Assembly (NCBI GenBank): GCA_951406725.2
Contig: OX597822.1
Span: 28,768,001 to 28,832,000 of the forward strand
Source of the DNA: Octopus vulgaris
Lineage: Eukaryota
Direction: 5' to 3'
Length of the DNA: 64,000 nucleotides
Part shown: positions 5,807 to 54,209 of the stretch, in pieces
How positions within the stretch are numbered: the stretch's first letter is position 1
Layout of the letters: each line of letters begins with the position of its first letter
Translations under genes and position numbers: made by a program
The notes under the pieces: model-generated
Database searches by the model: none
What the model was told of the DNA's origin: nothing
The model's input: the letters and a program-made list of their open reading frames with translations, nothing else

Positions 5807-6242
5807 AATAATGAGGGTGATAAATTGAATATTAATTTAATTAACATCAATTTAAAACCAGTGGCCTAGCATATAGAAAAATCTGAAAATTCAGAAACAT
5901 TGTATTACATACGTTTAAGAAGGGATGACCACTAAGAGGACATCCAATATGCTAGAAATAGATCACCTACGATCTAGCCACAAAGGAAAAGAATGTTCAG
6001 CGAACACCAGGACATAAGCGGGTAAGACAAATGAAAATATACAAAATAAAGAATTAATTGTAGACTAATTTCGCCATTAACGAATTTACTTACGTAACAA
6101 CGTCTGTGGCTCCTCAGTACGACTGTTCTAATTCAATATAATTTGCAGAACTGTACACAGGTTGTCCTCATAAAATTAGACGTGTACGCGTCTGTGTGTG
6201 TGTGTATGTATGTATATATATACATATGCGTGTGCGTGCGTG

Positions 6243-15943: not shown

Positions 15944-15985
<42 letters not shown>

Positions 15986-16347
15986 CAACAATTGAGGGTA
16001 AAATTAATTAATTAATTATTTATCAATTTCACCAAGTGTTCAGTATGTAAAGGGACCATTTAAGGCGAATTTAAATTATTACATTATATAAAAGGGCTTA
16101 GTAAAATAAATTACTTTGCCACATACTGAACTCATTAGAAATAGTAGCTAAAAAAAAACTTTTACCGAAAAAGCATAGTGTTTACTGATTTTAACCTACG
16201 CTGGTGGAAAGGGGAGAGCAGAAATTCTTCGCTTGCATATTTTGGGTGTGCTGGCACTGTTAGTTTCGAGCAGATCTTCAGAAGCGATAAGAAGCCGAAA
16301 GGGTATGCTCCCACTTTCAGTGTTTTCAAATCCAAACCAAGGAGTTC

Positions 16348-16400
16348 TGAGCTGATGATAGAAATGTCGAGTTTGACTAATCTTGAAACGTACGTTCTCA
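16348..16400 (+). ncRNA. Type I hammerhead ribozyme motif, array unit 1
   Basis: TGAG-CTGATGA-TAGAAATGTC-GAGTTT-GACTAATCTT-GAAA-CGTACG-TT-CTCA. Palindromic stem III, GUU triplet. Confidence 0.75.
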
Positions 16401-16910
16401 AATAACCTTTGCATTTGATTTTTTAATGTCTTTACCCCCATACTTATCGTGAGTTGAATTGAGCAAACACTACATGAGAGAGATTTTCTTTAAGTATTAG
16501 AAATAGTTTTAAAAAGTTTTTTTAGCTACATTTCTAATGAGTTCAGTATGTGGCAAAGTAATTTATTTTACTAAGCCCTTTTATATAATGTAATAATTTA
16601 AATTCGCCTTAAATGGTCCCTTTACATACTGAACACTTGGTGAAATTGATTAAAAATTAATTAATTAATTTTACCCTCAATTGTTGAAATTATAATTCAT
16701 CTCTCTCTATTTAATGTTTCGGATTTACCGAAAAAGCATAGTGTTTACTGATTTTAACCCACGCTGGTGGAAAGGGGAGAGCAGAAATTCTTCGCTTGCA
16801 TATTTTGGGTGTGCTGGCACTGTTAGTTTCGAGCAGATCTTCAGAAGCGATAAGAAGCCGAAAGGGTATGCTCCCACTTTCAGTGTTTTCAAATCCAAAC
16901 CAAGGAGTTC

Positions 16911-16963
16911 TGAGCTGATGATAGAAATGTCGAGTTTGACTAATCTTGAAACGTACGTTCTCA
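16911..16963 (+). ncRNA. Type I hammerhead ribozyme motif, array unit 2
   Basis: Identical to 16348-16400. Confidence 0.75.
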
Positions 16964-17473
16964 AATAACCTTTGCATTTGATTTTTTAATGTCTTTACCC
17001 CCATACTTTCGTGAGTTGAATTGAGCAAACACTATATGAGAGAGATTTTCTTTAAGTATTAGAAATAGTTTTAAAAAGTTTTTTTAGCTACTATTTCTAA
17101 TGAGTTCAGTATGTGGCAAAGTAATTTATTTTACTAAGCCCTTTTATATAATGTAATAATTTAAATTCGCCTTAAATGGTCCCTTTACATACTGAACACT
17201 TGGTGAAATTGATTAATAATTAATTAATTAATTTTACCCTCAATTGTTGAAATTATAATTCATCTCTCTCTATTTAATGTTTCGGATTTACCGAAAAAGC
17301 ATAGTGTTTACTGATTTTAACCCACGCTGGTGGAAAGGGGAGAGCAGAAATTCTTCGCTTGCATATTTTGGGTGTGCTGGCACTGTTAGTTTCGAGCAGA
17401 TCTTCAGAAGCGATAAGAAGCCGAAAGGGTATGCTCCCACTTTCAGTATTTTCAAATCCAAACCAAGGAGTTC

Positions 17474-17526
17474 TGAGCTGATGATAGAAATGTCGAGTTT
17501 GACTAATCTTGAAACGTACGTTCTCA
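17474..17526 (+). ncRNA. Type I hammerhead ribozyme motif, array unit 3
   Basis: Identical to 16348-16400. Confidence 0.75.
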
Positions 17527-18292
17527 AATAACCTTTGCATTTGATTTTTTAATGTCTTTACCCCCATACTTTCGTGAGTTGAATTGAGCAAACACTATAT
17601 GAGAGAGATTTTCTTTAAGTATTAGAAATAGTTTTAAAAAAGTTTTTTTTAGCTACTATTTCTAATGAGTTCAGTATGTGGCAAAGTAATTTATTTTACT
17701 AAGCCCTTTTATATAATATATATATATATATATATACATAGTGATAAATAAAAATATGTGCATACATACAAACATATATGTACGTACCTACATCTACATG
17801 TATATATACATGCATATATAAATAATTATACGTGAGTACAGGACACCACAATAAGACGTAGAAACGTTCCACCTCTTGGTTCCTGTTATTTTTATATTAT
17901 TATTATATATATATATACATATGTTTGTATGCGTGTGTATGTATTTATGTATGTATGTGTGTACATGTGTATATATTTATATGTATGTATATGTATATGT
18001 ATATGTTTATGTATGTATATATATATGCATATATGTGTATTTATATGTGTGTATGTATGTATGTATGTATATGTGTATATGTGTATATATATATGCATGT
18101 ATGTATTTATGTATATATATATGTGTGTGTGTATGTGTATATGCTTGTATATGTTTATGTATGCGTATGTGTATTTATATTTACATGCGTATTTGTATAT
18201 AAATGTATGTGTGTATGCATGTATATATTTGTGTATGGATGTATGTATATATATATATACTTTATTTTAAGCAGCAGAAAATTCAACAAAAT

Positions 18293-21804: not shown

Positions 21805-21870
<66 letters not shown>

Positions 21871-22017
21871 AAAAGCAATAAAGATTCAAGTTAGTTTAAA
21901 TGAATTTACTTGAATATGGTACCTAACTTAGATGCACCAAAAAAAACTATACTGATTTAACAATACAGTAATGTGGGGTGATTATAAGCGAGAATGAAGC
22001 AACAAGAATGGATAGGT

Positions 22018-22108
22018 TTTTAGTACAATCGTTTCATACAAGGACAGGTTTTATTAAAAGTTGCAAAAATTACAGCATATAAACGTGTCCCGTACTCATC
22101 AGCTAAAA
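22018..22108 (-). ncRNA. Type I hammerhead motif in a PLE 3' terminus
   Basis: Reverse complement of 25498-25588. Confidence 0.78.
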
Positions 22109-25100
22109 TACATGTGAGTTCTCTAGACATCCTAGTGGTTGAGGCTATACTCATGAAGTAATGTAGATAATTAAGTAACATAAACAGATTTCAAAAGTTC
22201 ATTAAAGTTCTTTAAAGATGATGTACAGTCTTATCACAGAATTTTAAAAAAAGTCTTAATAGCATCACAGAGAAGGTGACCCAATCCATAGTGCACATAT
22301 GAATTTCCAGAGATATGATGAGGGATTACATACTCACAGAAGGCAAATTTATCCATTGTTAATTACAACGAGGTGGGTTTCAATTCCTGCTTATTAGCAT
22401 TACAGAGAGGGTGAATTAATCCTTTGTATAGATGCACAATTTCCAATGGTGTAGGTGTAAATTTCCAAGGAATTTCATATTCACAGGCGATAAATTTATC
22501 AATGGTTGAACACAATGAGGTAGGTATCAATTCTTGCTATATGATTAGGTATTTGCCACATTAATCACATTACTGCTATTTACAAGAGGTTGTAGCTATT
22601 TAACTTTTAAAGGCTGAAGGGCTTACTAGAGCTGTATAGAATAGAAAAGGGAAGGGCATAGAAGAAAAGAGAGAAAATAAAAGAGAGAAAATAAAAGAGG
22701 AGGGAGTAAAAAGGGGGGAAAGGGGGACTCAAAGAGAAGAGAAAAGGAAAAAGAGAATAAGAAGAAGAAAAAGAAAAAAGAGAAAAGAGAAAGAAAAGAG
22801 AAAGAAATAGGGAAGGAAGGGAAAAAAAGAAAAAGAAGAAAAAAGAAAAAAAGAAAAAAAGAAAAAGAAGAAAGAAGAAAGAAAAAGAAAAAAAGGGTTC
22901 TAGTTATACAGAAGAATTAGTAGACGACAAGTCTGGTTTTAGTTTACAGGCATCTAGGAATTAGAGGAGAATATTATTCTTTGACCAGTTAAAACAGTTA
23001 ATTTATTGCTGTTGAAATCAGCTATGAATTTAAAGAGAATCTAAAGAGATAACACAGTTAGGGGTTTCGGGGTCAGATGCTAAAATCACCAGAAAATACA
23101 TTAGGGAAAACTAGGTATAATCTTATCAAAAAGTCATCAAAATTTACTTATTTAATTTATTCATTTTATTGTCTTAAGGAGTTGCCGTTATTATTCATAC
23201 ATTGACGGACTACAGGTCAAATCTTAGAAGATCATTTAAGAGGTGTTAGGGGATTGTCTATCATAATGAAGATAATCATATTATCACCGAGGGAATAGTC
23301 TCATTTATTTAATTTTGAAATAGAATTATGGGTCTATAGTAACCCAATTTAATTAATTAGAGTTATGCTAATTAAATTAGATTAAGTTAGGAACTAAAAT
23401 TAAAAATTACAATTAAGATTTAAAATTAAGAATTTAAAAATTTAAAAATTGTGAGTTTGAAATTAAATAAAGCCTCAATCAAGCAGCGAATAAGTGCTAT
23501 TCATTTCCCTGTTCTCAAAAAACTGATGCAGATATAGGAAAAAGATAACTGTAGTGTGAGAACTCTTAGTTATCTACTTAAAGCAGTGCTATACCAGTAG
23601 AAATCAGGTTATATCTATCTATCTAGTTACGAATATTCTAATCATTTAAAATATTTTAAAGTCTTCAATTTAGCGTGGACACAAACTTGACCTAGTTCGA
23701 TATGGTTATTCAATAGGTTTCTATGTTTTCTATGCTTTAGAATTTCATATGTCTCCATGGAGCATAGTTGGCAACCAACCCTACTATTTTTATACGGAAT
23801 TGCTCTCCTAACTATTTCCCAATTAAGGTTATAATTTTTATTATTATTTTTGAGTTCCCAGATTTTGTTTGAAAGTGTGGTGGTACCAGCTTTATGACGT
23901 AATTTAAAAGTCGAGATGTGATTTCTAACTCTAGCTAAAAAATTAATTGTACATCCAATGTAAAAATATTTGTTATTCTCCGTGGATATGGTACATTTAT
24001 AGATTACATTATTTTCTCCACATAGACCAGGTGCCGGGCATTTTGATTTTATTCTACACTTACACACAGGAGGAACACCTTCAGGCTTTGGATTATTCTT
24101 GGGTAGATGTTTTAGGTTCCTATTATTTTGATTATCATTTCTATAGTTGGTGCTGATATCTAAAGTATTGCTATTATTTCTTGATCCTTCTGTTTCATTA
24201 TTTAGATCTAAAGTCCTACCATGATTTCTTATATTATTGGTAATGTTAATATTATTGCTAGTCTTTTCTCTATTTTCCTATTTCTATTATTTCTATTATT
24301 AACATTATTACTTCTACTAATATCGGCATTGCTATTATTACTATTAATGTTAATGCTATTAGTCATTCTGTGGTTACTAATTTCACCTATGTTTTGATAG
24401 TTACTATTGCTGTTTTTATTGTTGGTAGTATTATTACAATTGCTATTGGTATTCATGCTGATATTATTATTATTATTATTATTATTATTTATATTTCTAT
24501 CTTTCCTGGCTAGTTTAATGTTGTTATTATTAATCTTAGCTATTAAAGTGGACATATTTGGGAGGGTTGAATAAGAAATCCTAACTGTTTTCCTAGAAAT
24601 AATTCTATGATATCTATGAGAGATAGGGAAATTTTTTTCCAGAATCACTTTGAATTTGTTCTGTATATCCGATTGTATCGCACAGTTGAAAGGAATATTC
24701 AGCCATAATATATCTTTTTTTTCTTTTCTTTCTTCTTTCTTCTTTTTCTTTTTTTCTTTTTTTCTTTTTTCTTCTTTTTCTTTTTTCCCTTCCTTCCCTA
24801 TTTCTTTCTCTTTTCTTTCTCTTTCTCTTTTTCTTTTTCTTCTTCTTATTCTCTTTTTCCTTTTCTCTTCTCTTTGAGTCCCCCTTTCCCCCCTTTTTAC
24901 TCCCTCCTCTTTTATTTTCTCTCTTTTATTTTCTCTCTTTTCTTCTATGCCCTTCCCTTTTCTATTCTATACAGCTCTAGTAAGCCCTTCAGCCTTTAAA
25001 AGTTAAATAGCTACAACCTCTTGTAAATAGCAGTAATGTGATTAATGTGGCAAATACCTAATCATATAGCAAGAATTGATACCTACCTCATTGTGTTCAA

Positions 25101-25497
25101 CCATTGATAAATTTATCGCCTGTGAATATGAAATTCCTTGGAAATTTACACCTACACCATTGGAAATTGTGCATCTATACAAAGGATTAATTCACCCTCT
25201 CTGTAATGCTAATAAGCAGGAATTGAAACCCACCTCGTTGTAATTAACAATGGATAAATTTGCCTTCTGTGAGTATGTAATCCCTCATCATATCTCTGGA
25301 AATTCATATGTGCACTATGGATTGGGTCACCTTCTCTGTGATGCTATTAAGACTTTTTTTAAAATTCTGTGATAAGACTGTACATCATCTTTAAAGAACT
25401 TTAATGAACTTTTGAAATCTGTTTATGTTACTTAATTATCTACATTACTTCATGAGTATAGCCTCAACCACTAGGATGTCTAGAGAACTCACATGTA

Positions 25498-25588
25498 TTT
25501 TAGCTGATGAGTACGGGACACGTTTATATGCTGTAATTTTTGCAACTTTTAATAAAACCTGTCCTTGTATGAAACGATTGTACTAAAA
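25498..25588 (+). ncRNA. Type I hammerhead motif in the inverted PLE terminus
   Basis: TTTTAG-CTGATGA-GTACGGGACA...TGTCCTTGTAT-GAAA-CGATTG-TA-CTAAAA. 6-bp stem I, extended stem II. Confidence 0.78.
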
Positions 25589-25618
25589 ACCTATCCATTC
25601 TTGTTGCTTCATTCTCGC

Positions 25619-25743
<125 letters not shown>

Positions 25744-32902: not shown

Positions 32903-32967
<65 letters not shown>

Positions 32968-32971
<4 letters not shown>

Positions 32972-35900
32972 TCAATAAATGGTGGGGTTGTGTTGACCGC
33001 ACGTGGAGAAATGATAAGTAAGGAAAATTTTTTTTTTTTTAAAAATGCAGAATGCTCAAATGAAAGAAAATTTTAATAAAATGAGAAAATGATAAAATAT
33101 ATAAATATATATTTATTCAACCGGTTTTCGTCATTGTATGACTTGTCAAGAATATTTATGTTTTAAGAAGTTTTTTTAAAAATTAGAAAGGGGAAAAAAA
33201 GAAAATTGCATTGTTTTTTGTAAAAGAATAATGATAAAAATGTACAAAATTGAAAAATAAGTTCTCCGATACATTGTGAGTTCGTTGTGTATCTTGAGTT
33301 TTATGGTTGTTTACCAAAAAATTACCTTGAGGTGTTAAGATCCAAAGGGATTAAGAGCATGTGATGTGTTGTGTTGTTAAATTCAGCATGTTGCAGGACA
33401 GGAAGTAGTAGTAATTGTGGTCCTGGTTCTTCAGTTCCTGTGTTGTGAGTAAGGGGAGACAACTCTTTTGAGTTCTTCAATAAAACCCAAATTATAAAAC
33501 TATCATTTTAGCTTCATTTGCATTATCTTTTTTATATAATTGCTTGTTAACTTAACTTTCAGATTTTAACACTTTATTTATATTATTTTCTAATAATATA
33601 AATCTGCATAGACAATTGCATTTCAAATTGTCATATCATTTATAATAAAAATGATAGTAATAACAACAATAGTAAAAATGATATTTAAAGAATATAAGTT
33701 TTAGCTTGAAGTGATGAATGCATGGTATCTTTATATATTTATGTTAGTCCATCCATGAAGAGTGAGGTAGAGAAAGGAAGTTTGATCAACGAGGAGTTTG
33801 CATATTAAGTTGTGTTTGGAATTTTTCAATAAAGAGATTCTCCTTGTTAATTCTCTCCTGTGTGGTGATCCCGTCTTTACATTGGTAGAAGGGGAATATA
33901 TAGAATTTGGGGTTTAAGTCTTTAGCACATGAGTCTAAGTGGTCACTCAGTGGAATTTGTCGGTATTCCGGGAGATTTATTTGTTCTTTATGCACCGTTA
34001 CTCGTTTACGTAACGGGAGACTCGTTTGTCCAACATAATTATGTTGGCAACCAGCGCATGTGAGAACGTAGATAAGGTTCTCGGAGGAACAGGAGAAGTT
34101 AGTCTTGATTTTAAACTTCGTACCTTGTTTGAAGGTAAATTCAGAGCCTTCAAGTAGAAAGGGGCAGGTACCACAGTTTGAGCGTGCACATTTTTTTACT
34201 GTTGGGGGTGGATGTGGTGTGTGAAGTTTGGCATTTGTCAAGAGTTTTTTTAAAGATTTGTGTTGCCTTTTGCATTTGAGGATTTTGTGTGTATTTATAA
34301 TGTTTTTCATTTTTGGGTCTGTTGACAGTAGACTGAGGTTTTGTATGATTGTGGTGTATGCTTCGATATTTTTGGGGTTGTGGGTGGAAATGTATGGAAG
34401 TATTTTGAGGTTGTGTGTGGTGTTAGGTTGGGTGGTTTTCAGTGTAGTGTTGTCTAGTTCTTTGGCGCGTTTTATTCCATACTCTATAAGGGTGGAGGGA
34501 TATTGACGTTGTAATAGTGTTTTTTTGAGGTCTTGAAGGCGTATTTCTCGTGTTTTTGGATCCGAGACAATGGTGCATACCCTTTTAGCTAAATTGAAAG
34601 GGATATTTGTCTTGGTGTGTTTTGGGTGGCATGAACTAAAGAGGAGGTATTGTTGTGAGTCTGTAGGTTTGTGGTAGATGTCTGTTATGATTTGGTTCTT
34701 AGGTGTTTTTATAATTAGGAGATCAAGGAATGGGAGATGATGTTTGCTTAATTCCATAGTGAATTGGATGTTGGGATGTATGTTGTTTAGTATGGTTTTG
34801 AATTCCAGGAGTTTTTCATAAGGTTCTTTCCATATGATGAAACAATCATCTAAATACCTTTTCCAGTTTTCCATTAGGTAGGTGTGGAAAACATGTCCAA
34901 ATTTCTGGCTTGATATTTCATAGAGTGACAGTTCGAAGTAACCCATTATGAGGTTCGCAAGGACTGGTGCAGCCTTGGTACCCATCGCAATGCCACATTT
35001 TTGACGGTAGTGTGTGTCGTCGAAGAGAAAAAATTGTTTGTCAGAATGAACTTAAGAGATTCTGTAATAAAAGACTTGTTAATGCGGTCAGGGAATGCCT
35101 CTGGGTGTTTTTCTAGCCAGAAGTCAATTGCCTCTATACCACACTCATGTGGAATGTTGGTGTAGAGGTTACCACAATCATACAAAACCTCAGTCTACTG
35201 TCAACAGACCCAAAAATGAAAAACATTATAAATACACACAAAATCCTCAAATGCAAAAGGCAACACAAATCTTTAAAAAAACTCTTGACAAATGCCAAAC
35301 TTCACACACCACATCCACCCCCAACAGTAAAAAAATGTGCACGCTCAAACTGTGGTACCTGCCCCTTTCTACTTGAAGGCTCTGAATTTACCTTCAAACA
35401 AGGTACGAAGTTTAAAATCAAGACTAACTTCTCCTGTTCCTCCGAGAACCTTATCTACGTTCTCACATGCGCTGGTTGCCAACATAATTATGTTGGACAA
35501 ACGAGTCTCCCGTTACGTAAACGAGTAACGGTGCATAAAGAACAAATAAATCTCCCGGAATACCGACAAATTCCACTGAGTGACCACTTAGACTCATGTG
35601 CTAAAGACTTAAACCCCAAATTCTATATATTCCCCTTCTACCAATGTAAAGACGGGATCACCACACAGGAGAGAATTAACAAGGAGAATCTCTTTATTGA
35701 AAAATTCCAAACACAACTTAATATGCAAACTCCTCGTTGATCAAACTTCCTTTCTCTACCTCACTCTTCATGGATGGACTAACACAAATATATAAAGATA
35801 CCATGCATTCATCACTTCAAGCTAAAACTTATATTCTTTAAATATCATTTTTACTATTGTTGTTATTACTATCATTTTTATTATAAATGATATGACAATT

Positions 35901-36504
35901 TGAAATGCAATTGTCTATGCAGATTTATATTATTAGAAAATAATATAAATAAAGTGTTAAAATCTGAAAGTTAAGTTAACAAGCAATTATATAAAAAAGA
36001 TAATGCAAATGAAGCTAAAATGATAGTTTTATAATTTGGGTTTTATTGAAGAATTCAAAAGAGTTGTCTCCCCTTACTCACAACACAGGAACTGAAGAAC
36101 CAGGACCACAATTACTACTACTTCCTGTCCTGCAACATGCTGAATTTAACAACACAACACATCACATGCTCTTAATCCCTTTGGATCTTAACACCTCAAG
36201 GTAATTTTTTGGTAAACAACCATAAAACTCAAGATACACAACGAACTCACAATGTATCGGAGAACTTATTTTTTAATTTTTGTACATTTTTATCATTATT
36301 CTTTTACAAAAAACAATGCAATTTTCTTTTTTTCCCCTTTCTAATTTTTAAAAAAACTTCTTAAAACATAAATATTCTTGACAAGTCATACAATGACGAA
36401 AACCGGTTGAATAAATATGTATTTATATATTTTATCATTTTCTCATTTTATTAAAATTTTCTTTCATTTGAGCATTCTGCATTTAAAAAAAAAAAAATTT
36501 TTTA

Positions 36505-36508
<4 letters not shown>
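32968..36508 (-). mobile_element. Young Penelope-like element (Neptune-type RT plus GIY-YIG), 5'-truncated, with an inverted 1.34-kb copy of its 3' part
   Basis: ORF 33786-34985 has AMGTKAAP, WKRYLDDCF, LPFLDL, YHKPT, SCHP, CARSNCGTC and NLIYVLTC...YVGQT...R...H...H. 35171-36508 (+) is the reverse complement of about 33016-34355. (TA)n flanks. Confidence 0.93.
36373..36413 (+). ncRNA. U3-A8 variant hammerhead-like motif in the PLE terminus (other copies 33114-33154 -, 51449-51489 -, 53285-53325 +)
   Basis: TATTC-TTGACAA-GTCA-TACAA-TGAC-GAAA-ACCGGT-T-GAATA. Confidence 0.6.
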
Positions 36509-36560
<52 letters not shown>

Positions 36561-36683
36561 CATATATATATCTAATATAGGATAAAATATTTCCAAAAAA
36601 TTTCTATCAATGGCCAGCAGATTAAAAAATACCCTTAAAGGTTAAATTTATAAACAACTTATAAACAAGGGCAAAAGAAAAGA

Positions 36684-37404: not shown

Positions 37405-37829
37405 TAAATCACCAGATAGCCAGTGCGCTTACTTTCAACGTTTCATATTGATATATTCTAACTACCAACCAAAATAAATCTGAAACTAATTCATCATTCC
37501 ATGTAGGAGCAAAGGTACTTTTAAATATTTGGCGATTTATACAACTAAAACCACTAGACGGATTGAATACATCTGACGTTAATTGTACTAATGAGCAGTG
37601 CCAATATATACATGCAGCATCACTACAGCAAGATAATTACCTTTTTATGACTAAAGTAATAATTCCTTGCATTTCTCAATAGAAATACTTTTGAAATACA
37701 CATATATTTAGAATTATAAATAATTGTATTTCTAAGTGTTGCTAAAGTTTCATGTTGAAGACTTTAAATGTCGATATATAACCAAGACTTTTAGGATCAG
37801 TTATTACATTGTTTACTATAACTTTTAAA

Positions 37830-39842
37830 ATGGTAACATCATTTCAGTTGCTTATGCTTTCTCTTATAATGTTCTCAAATGATGCATCACTTGCACAATT
37901 CTTCAACAATTGCAGCCCAGCTTTGTGTTCTGATCCTCCTGCATATGACGTACCTGAACGTTGTTCGTGCCGCCCGGACTGCTACCTCTATAATGAATGC
38001 TGTTCTGACAAGATTAATAAAACCACTTCTGATCACAAACAACCCTATCCATCAATGTATTATAGTTGTAGAATGGTTAGTGATTCTTATTATTATCTGT
38101 TTGACCGTTGTCCACCTAACCATGATGTTGCAGAGCATGTAAACCACTGTGAAAACCCTGACTCCGATGATCAACTGCAAAACATACCCGCTTTTGGTAA
38201 AACAAGTAAAAGACTCTACAGGAACATGTATTGTGCTCTGTGTCATGGAGAGGAATTCACTCTTTGGAATATTCTGTATAAATGTAATTTAAGCTCTAAT
38301 GTAAGCCTTGAAAATTTATCAAATTATGTCAATAGATGTATGCGAATTGTAAAGGCTCCGGCGGAGAAATATAAACATTATTTGCATTCTTGTATTCCAC
38401 ACATTTCGAGTTGTCCTCAAGATTACAATAATACCGAACAAAGAATGGCATGTGAGACCGAGCCAATGGCGTTAATATATTTAGATAAGAAATATATATC
38501 ATATAATAAGAAATATGTATATGATAAGTTTTACAAAAATAGAGGTTGTGCCACGTGTAACGGGATTTCTGAAATTCAATGTAGAGTATTGTATTATATA
38601 AAGACTAAAACACCTATATTTAATTCACTAACAATCCTTTTCAATTATCATACCAATTTTTTAGAGATAAGAGATGCATTAACCGAAACTGTTCTACAGT
38701 TGCCATCCTGTTCAAAGCACGCTGTCTACGATATGAATACCAATCAATGTCGACAAGTTATCTACCATCCTCCACTAAACTGTACATCAACAAGATTAAA
38801 TGAATCTGAGTATTACATTACTAATGATGGTCGTCTCTACTTAAATAATACCCAACGCTTGCTGAACCAATCAGAATTCACTCGTGATTCTCAAGGTATA
38901 ATAAGTATCTGTGTAAACAATGGTACCAATAATATATCAAATATCAATGATGTATCAAAGTATTCCGTGGCTGAGAGCTATATCACATTAGTGGGACTCG
39001 TAATCTCTATTCCGGCTCAGGTAATCACTATTATAGTCTATCTCTGTATACCCGATCTCCGTACCTTACCAGGTAAATTACTCATTAGTCTTTTATCAGC
39101 ATTGTTTGCAGCTGAGCTTCTCTTTCTCATCTCATCACAAATCACTACATCTCTAGTGATGTGTAAATCTTTAGCTATAGTGATGCATTATTCCCTTCTA
39201 GCGACTTTCTTCTGGATGAATGTCATGTCTTTTGATGCCTGGTACACTTTCTCAGGATTTACACAACTTCGAAGTAAAGGAAAACATACCAAGAGATTTG
39301 TATTGTATTCCTTATATGCTTGGATCTGTCCACTTGTAATAGTAATAGTATCACTGATATTTGAGTATATTCCTGGAAATCACGGACTTTCTCCAGAATA
39401 TGGAAATGGTAATTGCTGGATTACAAATGGAAAAAATCTACTATGTTTTTTTGCAATCCCCGTAATGATTATTTTATGTCTTAATTTCGTAGCATTTACC
39501 CTCACCGCTAGAGGGCTCTATTTGGCACGCAAACTTTCTTCGAAATATTTACCAAAACATAACAAACCTGAGTTCATCATTTGTGTAAAACTATTCTTTG
39601 TCATGGGACTAACATGGATATTCGCATTTCTGTATACGTTTACAGGAATTGAAGAATTTTCTCTATTATTTTGTATTTTAAACTCATTCGTTGGGTTATT
39701 TATTTGTGTATCATTTCTATCAACAAAGACTGTCCGTCGCAATATTCTCCGGAATTTGAAAATAATTATAAAATTGCCCGCAAAAGAGTCTGTTGATTTG
39801 ACTTCTGCTCATAAAACAACTTCAACAGATATACCTGCATAA
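37830..39842 (+). CDS. Intronless family B (Methuselah-like/adhesion-type 7tm_2) GPCR with signal peptide, somatomedin-B-like and Cys-rich ectodomain, 670 aa
   Basis: AAAATGG Kozak start and a hydrophobic signal peptide. SMB-like CSCRPDCYLYNECCSD. Repeated YRNMYCALC / YKNRGCATC motifs and many NxS/T sites. Seven TM segments with LRTLPGK, HYSLLATFFWMNVMSFD, YSLYAW, CWI, KLFFVMGLTWIF and LNSFVGLFI. Confidence 0.93.
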   Translation: MVTSFQLLMLSLIMFSNDASLAQFFNNCSPALCSDPPAYDVPERCSCRPDCYLYNECCSDKINKTTSDHKQPYPSMYYSCRMVSDSYYYLFDRCPPNHDVAEHVNHCENPDSDDQLQNIPAFGKTSKRLYRNMYCALCHGEEFTLWNILYKCNLSSNVSLENLSNYVNRCMRIVKAPAEKYKHYLHSCIPHISSCPQDYNNTEQRMACETEPMALIYLDKKYISYNKKYVYDKFYKNRGCATCNGISEIQCRVLYYIKTKTPIFNSLTILFNYHTNFLEIRDALTETVLQLPSCSKHAVYDMNTNQCRQVIYHPPLNCTSTRLNESEYYITNDGRLYLNNTQRLLNQSEFTRDSQGIISICVNNGTNNISNINDVSKYSVAESYITLVGLVISIPAQVITIIVYLCIPDLRTLPGKLLISLLSALFAAELLFLISSQITTSLVMCKSLAIVMHYSLLATFFWMNVMSFDAWYTFSGFTQLRSKGKHTKRFVLYSLYAWICPLVIVIVSLIFEYIPGNHGLSPEYGNGNCWITNGKNLLCFFAIPVMIILCLNFVAFTLTARGLYLARKLSSKYLPKHNKPEFIICVKLFFVMGLTWIFAFLYTFTGIEEFSLLFCILNSFVGLFICVSFLSTKTVRRNILRNLKIIIKLPAKESVDLTSAHKTTSTDIPA

Positions 39843-42588: not shown

Positions 42589-42987
42589 TTAAGAGGGTCA
42601 AAATCGGTAACACAAACAGGACAGTAAAAACAAACAGGAAGGGCTGCTAAGCCTAAATGAGGTTGTGGTAGCGAACGTATATATCAAGCTTGGGACAGGA
42701 GACAAACAAGAACACGTCTTCCTTGTTCCAGCTACAACGGAAAGAAAGAAAGAAAGATGCCCGATGGCCATGTGGGAGCCAGGTGAGCAAGGGAGGAGGA
42801 GTGGGGGAGATAGGGTGACAGAATAATAGGATAGAATAGTGAGAGAAGAGGAGATAAAAGAAAAAGAGAAAGAGAGAAAAACGAAAGAGTAAAAAGATCG
42901 TATAGAGTGCGCATCAGAATTATTAAGATAAAGCTTACTTGGAAGTGGATGCGTGGCGTTCAATCATATAATAATATAAATAATATA

Positions 42988-43092
<105 letters not shown>

Positions 43093-43150
43093 CGTATATG
43101 TACATGCTTACATCTATATGTATGTATATATATATATATATATATTGTAT

Positions 43151-43916
43151 AGAGGGCATTACTACACATAAATGCCACATGCTAGGAGGGACTCTTAAAG
43201 TCAAAACTACTAAAATAAATAAACACATTGTACCGAATGCAACTCTCGAAGCAAGTCATTTAAAAGCAGAATTTAGCTGCAGATCACCGTGACTTCATAA
43301 TCAGTGCAGTGGTGCAATCTTTACTCATCAGTACAAACATGATTCAAGACTTAAAATGAATGAACAAAATCAACATAGCAGATGAACAACCATCGGATCC
43401 AACGTAGTATATAGAAATGTTCACCCCTTACACATCTATGTAAAAGTACTGAATTTTTATTCCGAACAAGCACGTTGTTATCGAAATGTAATTCGAAAAA
43501 GCCCGCCATTTACATAGATGTATAAGGGGTGAACATTTCTATATACTACGTTGGATCCGATGGTTGTTCGTCTGCTATGTTGATTTTGTTCTTTCATTAT
43601 AAATCTTGAATTATGCTTGTACTGATGAATAAAGAGTGCACCACTGCACGGATTATGAAATCACAGTGATCTGCAGCTAAATTCTGTTTTTAAATGATTT
43701 GCTTCGAGAGTTGCATTCGGTACGTTGTGTTTATATATTTTAGTAGTTTTGACTTTAAGAATTCCTCCTAGCGTGTGGCATTTATGTGTAGTAATGCCCT
43801 CTATATAATATAAATAAATATATTTAAGTGAAAGAATTGGTGGATTTTTCTCTTATGAGGTGTTTCACGCTGACTACGTGATAAATTCTTATAAAGATTA
43901 TATCCTTTTTTTAAAT

Positions 43917-43920
<4 letters not shown>
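43151..43920. mobile_element. Fold-back element with ~290-bp arms, a hammerhead in each arm and a 3' tail, in (TA)n
   Basis: 43151-43444 is inverted relative to about 43509-43802. The plus-strand HHR is at 43618-43675. The minus-strand HHR at 43278-43335 has GAAA changed to GAAG. Confidence 0.8.
43618..43675 (+). ncRNA. Type I hammerhead ribozyme motif
   Basis: TGTA-CTGATGA-ATAA-AGA-GTGCA-CCAC-TGCAC-GGA-TTAT-GAAA-TCACAGTGA-TC-TGCA. AUC triplet. Confidence 0.78.
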
Positions 43921-43978
<58 letters not shown>

Positions 43979-44261
43979 TGCATATGTAGGCACAGGTCGT
44001 CATGAAACGTGTACAACAAAAACTACAGAGCACGAGTACATGGAACATAAACTATTCTTCCGAACAACGAAAGACACAAATGGAAAACAAAACAAACAAC
44101 ATAAAGAACGACCCTTCATCAGTTGTTGGCTGTTTTTCTCGTCTCGAATTTCGAGCATTTAACAACAATATACGCTTTCAATAAAACAGTTTGCTCCCGC
44201 AAAGCAACTTAAATAAAATTTAGGATTTTGCGGAGGGTCAAAATTGTTAACACAAATAGGA

Positions 44262-49714: not shown

Positions 49715-49786
49715 TCCCATGTAGTCTAGTGGTTAGGATTCCTGGCTTTCACCCAGGCGAGCCAGGTTCGATTCCCAGCATAGGAA
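49715..49786 (+). tRNA. tRNA-Glu(TTC), probably a pseudogene
   Basis: TCCCATGTAGTCTAGTGGTTAGGATTCCTGGCTTTCACCCAGGCGAGCCAGGTTCGATTCCCAGCATAGGAA matches animal tRNA-Glu. It has one acceptor-stem and two T-stem mismatches. TTTT follows downstream. Confidence 0.8.
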
Positions 49787-51035: not shown

Positions 51036-51310
51036 AAAACGGTAAGATAACAAAAGAAAGAAAGAGACCTCAATATTATGTAAATAGAGGAAATTTATCT
51101 ATACAATATGTTACATTACTCGGTAGTCAAAATAAAACTCTGAGTTTCAGATGCCGAAGTGGAAATCCACAACACCATCTCTTCGGTTATCTGGCTAATT
51201 GAACGTTTTCAAATAGCCAGATAAACGAAGAGATGGTGTTGTGGATTTCCACTTCGGCATCTGAAACTCAGAGTTTTATCTTGACTACCGAGTAATGTAA
51301 CATATTGTAT

Positions 51311-51315
<5 letters not shown>
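51030..51315. mobile_element. Fold-back element with a C4-variant hammerhead-like motif in each arm (about 51130-51192 -, 51219-51281 +)
   Basis: Near-perfect inverted arms 51097-51314. Motif AGATAA-(C/A)CGAAGA-GATG...CATCT-GAAA-CTCAGAG-TT-TTATCT. Confidence 0.7.
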
Positions 51316-51371
<56 letters not shown>

Positions 51372-51374
<3 letters not shown>

Positions 51375-53467
51375 AGGAAAATTTTTTTTTAAAATGCAGA
51401 ATGCTCAAATGAAAGAAAATTTTAATAAAATGAGAAAAATGATAAAATTATTCAACCGGTTTTCGTCATTGTATGACTTGTCAAGAATATTTATGTTTTA
51501 AGAAGTTTTTTTAAAAATTAGAAAGGGGAAAAAAAGAAAATTGCATTGTTTTTTGTAAAAGAATAATGATAAAAATGTACAAAAATTAAAAAACTGGAAA
51601 AGGTATTTAGATGATTGTTTCATCATATGGAAAGAACCTTATGAAAAACTCCTGGAATTCAAAACCATACTAAACAACATACATCCCAACATCCAATTCA
51701 CTATGGAATTAAGCAAACATCATCTCCCATTCCTTGATCTCCTAATTATAAAAACACCTAAGAACCAAATCATAACAGACATCTACCACAAACCTACAGA
51801 CTCACAACAATACCTCCTCTTTAGTTCATGCCACCCAAAACACACCAAGACAAATATCCCTTTCAATTTAGCTAAAAGGGTATGCACCATTGTCTCGGAT
51901 CCAAAAACACGAGAAATACGCCTTCAAGACCTCAAAAAAACACTATTACAACGTCAATATCCCTCCACCCTTATAGAGTATGGAATAAAACGCGCCAAAG
52001 AACTAGACAACACTACACTGAAAACCACCCAACCTAACACCACACACAACCTCAAAATACTTCCATACATTTCCACCCACAACCCCAAAAATATCGAAGC
52101 ATACACCACAATCATACAAAACCTCAGTCTACTGTCAACAGACCCAAAAATGAAAAACATTATAAATACACACAAAATCCTCAAATGCAAAAGGCAACAC
52201 AAATCTTTAAAAAAACTCTTGACAAATGCCAAACTTCACACACCACATCCACCCCCAACAGTAAAAAAATGTGCACGCTCAAACTGTGGTACCTGCCCCT
52301 TTCTACTTGAAGGCTCTGAATTTACCTTCAAACAAGGTACGAAGTTTAAAATCAAGACTAACTTCTCCTGTTCCTCCGAGAACCTTATCTACGTTCTCAC
52401 ATGCGCTGGTTGCCAACATAATTATGTTGGACAAACGAGTCTCCCGTTACGTAAACGGTGCGAACAAATAAAGAATACCGACAAATTCCACTGAGTGACC
52501 ACTTAGACTCATGTGCTAAAGACTTAAACAAATTCTATAATTCCCCTTCTACCAATGTAAAGACGGGATCACCACACAGGAGAGAATTAACAAGGAGAAT
52601 CTCTTTATTGAAAAATTCCAAACACAACTTAATATGCAAACTCCTCGTTGATCAAACTTCCTTTCTCTACCTCACTCTTCATGGATGGACTAACACAAAT
52701 ATATAAAGATACCATGCATTCATCACTTCAAGCTAAAACTTATATTCTTTAAATATCATTTTTACTATTGTTGTTATTACTATCATTTTTATTATAAATG
52801 ATATGACAATTTGAAATGCAATTGTCTATGCAGATTTATATTATTAGAAAATAATATAAATAAAGTGTTAAAATCTGAAAGTTAAGTTAACAAGCAATTA
52901 TATAAAAAAGATAATGCAAATGAAGCTAAAATGATAGTTTTATAATTTGGGTTTTATTGAAGAAGTCAAAAGAGTTGTCTCCCCTTACTCACAACACAGG
53001 AACTGAAGAACCAGGACCACAATTACTACTACTTCCTGTCCTGCAAACATGCTGAATTTAACAACACAACACAACACATGCTCTTAATCCCTTTGGATCT
53101 TAACACCTCAAGGTAATTTTTTCGTAAACAACCATAAAACTCAAGATACACAACGAACTCACAATGTATCGGAGAACTTATTTTTTAATTTTTGTACATT
53201 TTTATCATTATTCTTTTACAAAAAACAATGCAATTTTCTTTTTTTCCCCTTTCTAATTTTTAAAATAACTTCTTAAAACATAAATATTCTTGACAAGTCA
53301 TACAATGACGAAAACCGGTTGAATAAAAATATATATTTATATATTTTCTCATTTTCTCATTTTATTAAAATTTTCTTTCATTTGAGCATTCTGCATTTTT
53401 AAAAAAATTTTTCCTTACTTATCATTTCTCCACGTGCGGTCAACACAACCCCACCATTTATTGATCT
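51372..53467 (+). mobile_element. Second copy of the 33-36 kb Penelope family: short inverted terminus (51372-51590), then a 5'-truncated sense copy with tail
   Basis: ORF 51703-52494 is identical to part of ORF 33786-34985 until small deletions in the GIY-YIG region. It has the same tail ...CCCCACCATTTATTGATC(TA)n. Confidence 0.92.
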
Positions 53468-53489
53468 ATATATATATATATATATATAT

Positions 53490-54209
<720 letters not shown>

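What the first reader, a model, noticed from the sequence alone, without database searches (positions are those of the whole stretch)
43151..43920. Ambisense fold-back mini-element with hammerheads on both strands
Seen: ~290-bp inverted arms around a ~65-bp spacer, an intact plus-strand HHR (43618-43675) and a minus-strand copy with GAAA changed to GAAG. A ~120-bp tail is present on one arm only, and there is no ORF. Inference: this is a non-autonomous PLE terminus. Either strand would give a rod-like RNA with a ribozyme, superficially viroid-like, and a long dsRNA substrate.
Basis: partly seen in the sequence, partly recalled or inferred. Interest (0 to 1): 0.7.

Follow-up and report, generated by a model that had tools for sequence, protein, structure and literature searches.

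The report
Retrozyme copy pasted from both ends
This hairpin is one decayed insertion of a common non-coding, ribozyme-carrying repeat, likely pasted in by a Penelope-type copying enzyme working from both ends of a cut in a TA-repeat, so it is a known kind of insertion scar, not a viroid-like RNA.

Summary
In detail: 297-bp arms (20 mismatches), a 64-bp spacer, a type I hammerhead with intact core on +, a GAAG copy on -, a 113-bp one-sided tail and no ORF. It is one copy of a dispersed ~497-bp non-coding monomer. The monomer's head-to-tail junction occurs at 185 places in the genome; this fold-back junction occurs once, so the hairpin does not spread as a unit. Hammerhead stems covary across sister families, which fits a non-LTR retrozyme. 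Fold-backs are common (47 of 111 loci). In 39 of 47, one arm ends at a fixed site S1 and the other at S2, about 110 nt upstream; none ends S1/S1. This best fits Penelope-type priming on both target strands at two start sites (inferred). The inverted truncated copy plus one-sided tail is published Penelope anatomy. The viroid-like reading is not supported: each strand has one ribozyme, predicted to be buried in the duplex. No coding parent was found, and cleavage and expression are untested. The scan has noted similar fold-backs in at least 16 other genomes.

The parts
42966..43147 (.). (TA)n-rich run, left target flank
   Evidence: sequence; start is approximate; no TSD can be told inside TA repeats
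43148..43444 (-). Left arm: 5'-truncated monomer copy (monomer ~87-383) whose outer end is the second fixed 3' end, S2
43274..43339 (-). Type I hammerhead copy with A15.1 changed to G (GAAG); likely crippled (recalled hammerhead rule, not assayed)
43445..43508 (+). Spacer: monomer positions 23-86, the part of the right copy that the left arm lacks; the junction at 43444/43445 is unique in the genome
43509..43805 (+). Right arm: paired part of the forward monomer copy
43614..43679 (+). Type I hammerhead with intact core; predicted cleavage after 43671
43769..43872 (+). Predicted 3' structure: a hairpin just before S2 and a 7-bp long-range helix (43769-43775 with 43866-43872) that brackets S2
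   Evidence: RNAalifold on 13 sequences: helix paired in 13 of 13, one-sided changes only
43806..43918 (+). Tail: the 113 bp between the two fixed 3' ends S2 (~43802-43812) and S1 (43918)
43919..43988 (.). (TA)n run, right target flank
   Evidence: sequence

Best explanation
The hairpin is a single insertion of a dispersed ~497-bp non-coding hammerhead repeat (non-LTR retrozyme type) into a TA-repeat, likely made when a Penelope-type enzyme supplied in trans primed one cDNA on each strand of the cut target. Inferred steps: (1) a tandem or circular RNA of the monomer is bound by a PLE RT/GIY-YIG protein; (2) both strands of (TA)n are nicked; (3) one end starts copying at S1 and the other at S2, about 110 nt upstream; (4) both cDNAs stop early at variable points and are joined head to head. 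This gives two arms, a spacer (the part only the longer cDNA reached) and a tail on one arm (S2 to S1). Shown: the family, its closed monomer, the two fixed ends and their pairing, the variable inner ends, and later decay (each arm about 4-5% from the family majority). The ribozyme likely worked in the source RNA to cut multimers into monomers; in this hairpin it is predicted to be masked.
For: Family: 2998 first-look candidates, 40 scored, full-length matches at 87-93%. Head-to-tail junction at 185 places, control 0; fold-back junction at 1 place. 3' ends: 94 of 165 segments end at S1 and 55 of 165 at S2. Fold-backs: 39 of 87 loci, of which 32 pair S1 with S2, 0 are S1/S1, 1 is S2/S2 (a compound locus) and 6 are other; a separately drawn set of 25 loci adds 7 of 8. 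In 8 of the 32 (L101, L103, L110, L112, L113, L117, L120, L121) each arm holds sequence the other lacks, so neither arm was copied from the other. Three other hammerhead-bearing insertions in the window (two unrelated families), one of them an ORF-bearing PLE fragment, show the same one-sided tail of about 100-110 bp (read by eye). Hammerhead: 94.5% of cells paired, 7 of 16 pairs with two-sided changes, covariation 0.39 against 0.22 shuffled and at most 0.12 slid; the cleavage-site base is never G in 44 distinct copies. Papers: inverted truncated copy, one-sided tail and microsatellite bias (PMC8557442, passages); a PLE protein nicks and extends both strands from two internal start sites that define the tail (PMC11167929, parts 1-2 of 4); retrozymes as non-autonomous PLE derivatives (10.64898/2026.07.22.740005, parts 1-3 of 5).
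Against: No coding parent or helper was found: none in the flanks of 112 element loci, none among 35 GIY-YIG loci out of 148 matches. The tail is about 113 bp, not the published 30-40 bp. In vitro, the anole PLE showed no difference in start site between strands, so the strict S1/S2 pairing is not explained by that work. The arms share three variants (one private), but the right arm also shares two variants with L067 that the left arm lacks, so a single template molecule is not proven. The count of two-sided pairs alone is not above shuffles (61 of 500), and the 15 sequences were hand-picked. No pile-up of 5' ends at the cleavage site, so there is no genomic sign of in vivo cleavage. Loci were drawn by similarity and are not a random sample.
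Confidence: 0.72

Rival explanations
1. Snap-back: one cDNA primed at S1 folds back, self-primes and copies itself to S2, where the TA-rich site anneals to, or is cut and joined to, the other target end.
For: It gives exactly this locus's layout, since the S1 arm contains the whole S2 arm; a 6-bp palindrome opens the spacer; the arms share a private variant; self-priming was proposed for inverted PLE junctions (PMC3846280, passages).
Against: In 8 of 32 S1/S2 fold-backs each arm holds sequence that the other lacks, which one self-copied cDNA cannot give.
Confidence: 0.12
2. The repeat is only the 5'-truncated end (pLTR stub) of a coding PLE that I did not find, not a self-propagating non-coding unit.
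For: PLE insertions are mostly truncated; only 35 of 148 GIY-YIG matches were fetched; earlier scan notes reached this reading in other genomes.
Against: Whenever a copy extends past monomer position 1 it continues into the previous monomer's 3' end (185 junctions), never into an ORF; sister families at 70-86% identity close on themselves in the same way.
Confidence: 0.08
3. Two independent insertions landed head to head in the same TA-repeat.
For: The family targets (TA)n; the arms differ by 6.8%, close to the 8.8% median to other copies, and the right arm shares two variants with L067 that the left lacks.
Against: No TA run separates the arms; 47 of 111 loci are fold-backs with near-strict S1/S2 pairing; the own partner ranks 3rd of 37 in similarity and shares a private variant.
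Confidence: 0.05
4. An ambisense, viroid-like fold-back RNA that replicates or transposes as a unit using ribozymes of both polarities.
For: Either strand folds into a rod (83-87% paired, about -491 kcal/mol); sister families have fold-backs with both cores intact (10 pairs among the first 100 matches listed).
Against: The junction is unique and inner breakpoints differ between loci; one ribozyme per strand cannot release a unit-length RNA; both are predicted masked; one core is mutated; the arms have drifted 20 of 297.
Confidence: 0.02

Closest known systems
Metazoan non-LTR retrozymes (PMC7229834, passages; 10.64898/2026.07.22.740005, parts 1-3 of 5)
   Same: Non-coding, low-GC monomer with one type I hammerhead per unit, in head-to-tail repeats and solo copies; occurs in a genome rich in PLEs.
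   Different: Monomer ~497 bp (about 300 typical; 51-972 reported). Mostly partial tandems, and often an inverted arm with two fixed 3' ends; 'inverted' does not occur in the main text of PMC7229834. Circular RNA and cleavage not tested.
Complex insertions of EN+ Penelope-like elements (PMC8557442, PMC3846280, passages; PMC11167929, parts 1-2 of 4)
   Same: 5' truncation, partial tandems, adjacent inverted truncated copy, tail on one end, (TA)n target, hammerhead near the 3' end, two start sites.
   Different: No RT or GIY-YIG ORF; tail ~113 bp instead of 30-40; no parent pLTR found.
LINE-1 twin priming (recalled, no call)
   Same: Two primers from the two target strands yield a 5' inversion.
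   Different: Here both start sites are fixed in the RNA and the arms overlap by hundreds of bases, which needs strand displacement or a multimeric or circular template.
Hammerhead viroids and other ambisense ribozyme circles (recalled, no call)
   Same: Rod-like fold; hammerhead motifs on both strands.
   Different: Here the two motifs are two copies of one ribozyme from an inverted duplication, the unit is unique, and no strand carries two sites.

Membership tests
Non-LTR retrozyme | Type I hammerhead in the unit | tested here: met
   Core and three stems; covariation among sister families. Rfam models do not hit.
Non-LTR retrozyme | Short monomer in head-to-tail repeats | tested here: met
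   185 junctions; two hammerhead-bearing units in tandem in L013 and L173. This locus itself has no tandem.
Non-LTR retrozyme | No coding capacity | tested here: met
   Longest frame 63 codons; no significant match of the monomer to the PLE proteins held.
Non-LTR retrozyme | Self-cleavage of the RNA | not testable with these tools
   No assay; the isolated motif does not fold as a hammerhead at minimum energy; 5' ends do not pile up at the cut site.
Non-LTR retrozyme | Expressed as small circular RNA | not testable with these tools
   No RNA holder on record; only contigs available.
Non-LTR retrozyme | Target-site duplication when present | tested here: inconclusive
   Both flanks are (TA)n.
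Autonomous EN+ Penelope-like element | ORF with RT and GIY-YIG endonuclease | tested here: not met
   No ORF.
Non-autonomous PLE derivative | Homology to the pLTR of a coding PLE | tested here: inconclusive
   None found in 35 GIY-YIG loci or in the flanks of 112 element loci; search not exhaustive.
Non-autonomous PLE derivative | PLE insertion signature: partial tandem, inverted truncated copy, one-sided tail, microsatellite target | tested here: met
   compared with passages
Viroid-like ambisense RNA | Propagates as a defined unit | tested here: not met
   Junction found once with up to 2 mismatches; inner breakpoints vary.
Viroid-like ambisense RNA | Ribozymes able to release unit-length RNA in both polarities | tested here: not met
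   One per strand, one mutated, both predicted masked.
MITE / DNA transposon | Terminal inverted repeats that define both ends of a repeated unit | tested here: not met
   The two ends differ by the 113-bp tail; arm length varies and 48 of 87 loci have no inverted arm.

The most novel reading that the evidence does not exclude
Penelope enzymes prime both strands of a cut target at two different, fixed sites of one RNA substrate (one strand at S1, the other at S2), and this family of non-coding retrozymes records that rule almost without exception, giving direct genomic evidence that retrozymes move by PLE machinery and a minimal RNA for reconstituting the reaction.
Probability: 0.5. Interest if true: 0.5.

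Novelty: new member of a known kind. Interest (0 to 1): 0.27.

Why it matters
As a feature the hairpin is ordinary: a decayed insertion scar with published Penelope anatomy. What is useful is the family. How PLEs make inverted arms and one-sided tails is called unresolved in PMC8557442 and PMC11167929, and the retrozyme-PLE link rests so far on co-occurrence and pLTR homology. A 500-nt non-coding RNA with two mapped ends that pair S1/S2 in 39 of 47 fold-backs is a compact test substrate for both questions.

Tried and rejected
Rfam gave no hammerhead hit; its miRNA hits are below the gathering scores and reflect hairpins and TA repeats. Parent search: GIY-YIG search of the genome (148 matches; 15 + 20 fetched), BLAST and motif scans, my own covariance model on 37 held sources, and patterns for sister families found only more non-coding relatives. 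Expression: no RNA holder listed; contigs of runs guessed to be RNA match other family members, no listed piece (tables were cut) matches this locus or spans its junction, and they say nothing on strand or level. A run-off at the ribozyme cut site, or a shared inner stop as earlier scan notes saw in other genomes, was not seen: 164 5' ends are spread over the monomer, with a broad excess at 261-320 that query choice may cause. MITE and viroid readings were rejected (see membership tests). Paper searches. The search 'Penelope + twin priming + inverted' listed two papers whose titles and abstract starts are not on PLE mechanism (listing only); the library lacks most subscription papers and I saw no supplements, so this does not show the idea is unpublished. 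PMC7334843 had no passage on Penelope hairpin siRNAs. The organism was not identified; 'cephalopod' was my guess from genome size.

Full report
1. Observation. The described structure is present. Without the flanking TA runs the arms are 43148-43444 and 43509-43805, 297 bp with 20 mismatches and no gaps, around a 64-bp spacer; 113 bp (43806-43918) follow the right arm only; the longest frame is 63 codons. A type I hammerhead lies on + with C3 at 43622 and predicted cleavage after 43671, and its copy on - has A15.1 changed to G. Rfam does not report it and the isolated motifs do not fold as hammerheads at minimum energy, so I tested the motif on relatives.

2. It is one copy of a repeat family. 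A search of the 2.8-Gb genome gave 2998 first-look candidates; the 40 scored include full-length matches at 87-93% identity. Alignment defines a ~497-bp monomer; the best copies lie about 2-9% from the majority sequence. The finding's spacer is simply monomer positions 23-86. Where copies extend further 5' they run into the 3' end of a preceding monomer: this head-to-tail junction occurs at 185 places with up to 2 mismatches (control 0), whereas the fold-back junction occurs once. Sister families at 70-86% identity close on themselves in the same way; one hammerhead pattern alone matches 558 places (control 0).

3. The ribozyme looks conserved in the source elements. The core is intact in 31 of 41 copies; core positions differ from the majority in 8 of 407 cells against 537 of 10103 elsewhere (copies were picked by similarity). 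Among 44 distinct motifs, found by a pattern that required the core, the cleavage-site base is C 27, A 15, U 2 and never G, and stem I positions 2 and 3 are paired in 44 of 44 with two-sided swaps. On 15 hand-picked sequences 94.5% of cells pair and the covariation score is 0.39 against 0.22 in shuffles and at most 0.12 when slid; the count of two-sided pairs (7 of 16) is not above shuffles (61 of 500). There is no pile-up of 5' ends at the cut site, in line with the report that uncleaved RNA is the main substrate of the anole PLE in vitro.

4. Two fixed 3' ends. Of 165 segment ends in 111 loci, 94 fall at S1 (monomer end) and 55 at S2 (~110 nt upstream), nearly always running into (TA)n. Of 87 loci, 39 have an inverted arm; 32 pair S1 with S2, none is S1/S1, one compound locus is S2/S2, six are other (L074 and L077 were dropped as segmental copies and L051 as cut by the locus edge). 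A second set of 25 loci drawn by the hammerhead pattern (L192 dropped as a segmental copy) adds 8 fold-backs, 7 of them S1/S2. Two of the draws required the tail in one arm, but nothing forced the other arm to stop at S2 in 24 of 24 classed cases. Inner breakpoints vary widely. In 8 of the 32, each arm holds sequence that the other lacks, which excludes simple snap-back copying there. A predicted hairpin and a 7-bp long-range helix, paired in 13 of 13 sequences with one-sided changes only, surround S2. Read by eye, three other hammerhead-bearing insertions in this window follow the same rule: the fold-back at 53487-54100, the GIY-YIG-bearing PLE fragment at 21850-25630, and the 563-bp tandem at 15978-17720.

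5. Mechanism. Most likely a PLE protein acting in trans nicks both strands of a TA-repeat and primes one cDNA at S1 and one at S2; both truncate and are joined head to head. The anatomy and the end rule are shown; the enzyme, the template form and the order of steps are inferred. Support from print: PLE insertions often carry an adjacent inverted truncated copy and a 30-40 bp tail on one end and favour microsatellites (PMC8557442, passages; PMC3846280, passages); a purified PLE protein cleaves and extends both strands and starts at two internal sites whose spacing is the tail (PMC11167929, parts 1-2 of 4). Against: no parent or helper was found, the tail is longer than published, and the two arms are not clearly from one molecule: they share three variants, one private, but the right arm shares two with L067 that the left lacks.

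6. The viroid-like reading. Either strand does fold into a rod (about -491 kcal/mol). But the monomers point outward, so on each strand the ribozyme is made after its own antisense; forcing the hammerhead fold costs 78 (+) and 93 (-) kcal/mol, against 5 and 12 for RNAs starting in the spacer. One site per strand cannot release a unit, the junction is unique, and the arms have drifted. Two-ribozyme fold-backs are common by-products here: 10 pairs with both cores intact among the first 100 matches listed. Whether the locus is transcribed into dsRNA is untested.

7. Comparison and novelty. It works like a PLE insertion and meets the testable features of a non-LTR retrozyme (PMC7229834, passages; 10.64898/2026.07.22.740005, parts 1-3 of 5; hammerheads in PLE repeats, PMC4209133, passages); cleavage and circular RNA are untested. 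It is not an autonomous PLE, a MITE or a viroid-like unit. The scan has no note on this sequence but holds 36 notes on similar fold-backs in at least 16 genomes; my two-end reading was noted before I saw them, and they are unchecked AI notes, not support. They mostly describe stubs of coding PLEs with shared inner stops; here the unit is a closed non-coding monomer with variable inner stops. Verdict: new member of a known kind; interest 0.27, carried by the near-strict S1/S2 rule as a handle on PLE integration.

Noticed in passing
window 53487-54100: A second fold-back from an unrelated hammerhead family, both cores intact (53606 -, 53872 +), with a ~110-bp tail on the right arm only.
   Followed up: partly
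window 21850-25630: 5'-truncated PLE with a C-terminal GIY-YIG and Asn-rich stretches, flanked by 913-bp inverted arms at 99.3%, hammerheads at 22102 (-) and 25504 (+); same pLTR family as the 53.5-kb fold-back.
   Followed up: partly
window 15978-17720: Three tandem 563-bp units with identical type I hammerheads (16352, 16915, 17478) and an inverted arm; a young retrozyme-like array, further copy near 59.5-60.2 kb.
   Followed up: partly
window 32908-36579 and 51300-53490: Near-identical (96-98%) PLE fragments with RT and GIY-YIG in tandem and inverted arrangement.
   Followed up: no
window 37782-39842 (+): Uninterrupted 686-codon frame for a secretin-family 7TM receptor (PF00002, E 5.5e-26), 3.3 kb left of the finding.
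   Followed up: no
window 6055-6125 (-): Another hammerhead-like motif, hit by my model at E 3e-4.
   Followed up: no
G000, e.g. L037 and L042: A PLE family with 781-codon open frames at many loci with identical scores, suggesting recent activity; a candidate source of enzyme, though its ends do not match the monomer.
   Followed up: partly
L073, L074, L077 and L165, L192: Element copies sharing their flanks, i.e. segmental duplications rather than separate insertions.
   Followed up: no
window 49715-49786 (+): tRNA-like match above the Rfam gathering score (47.7 bits).
   Followed up: no
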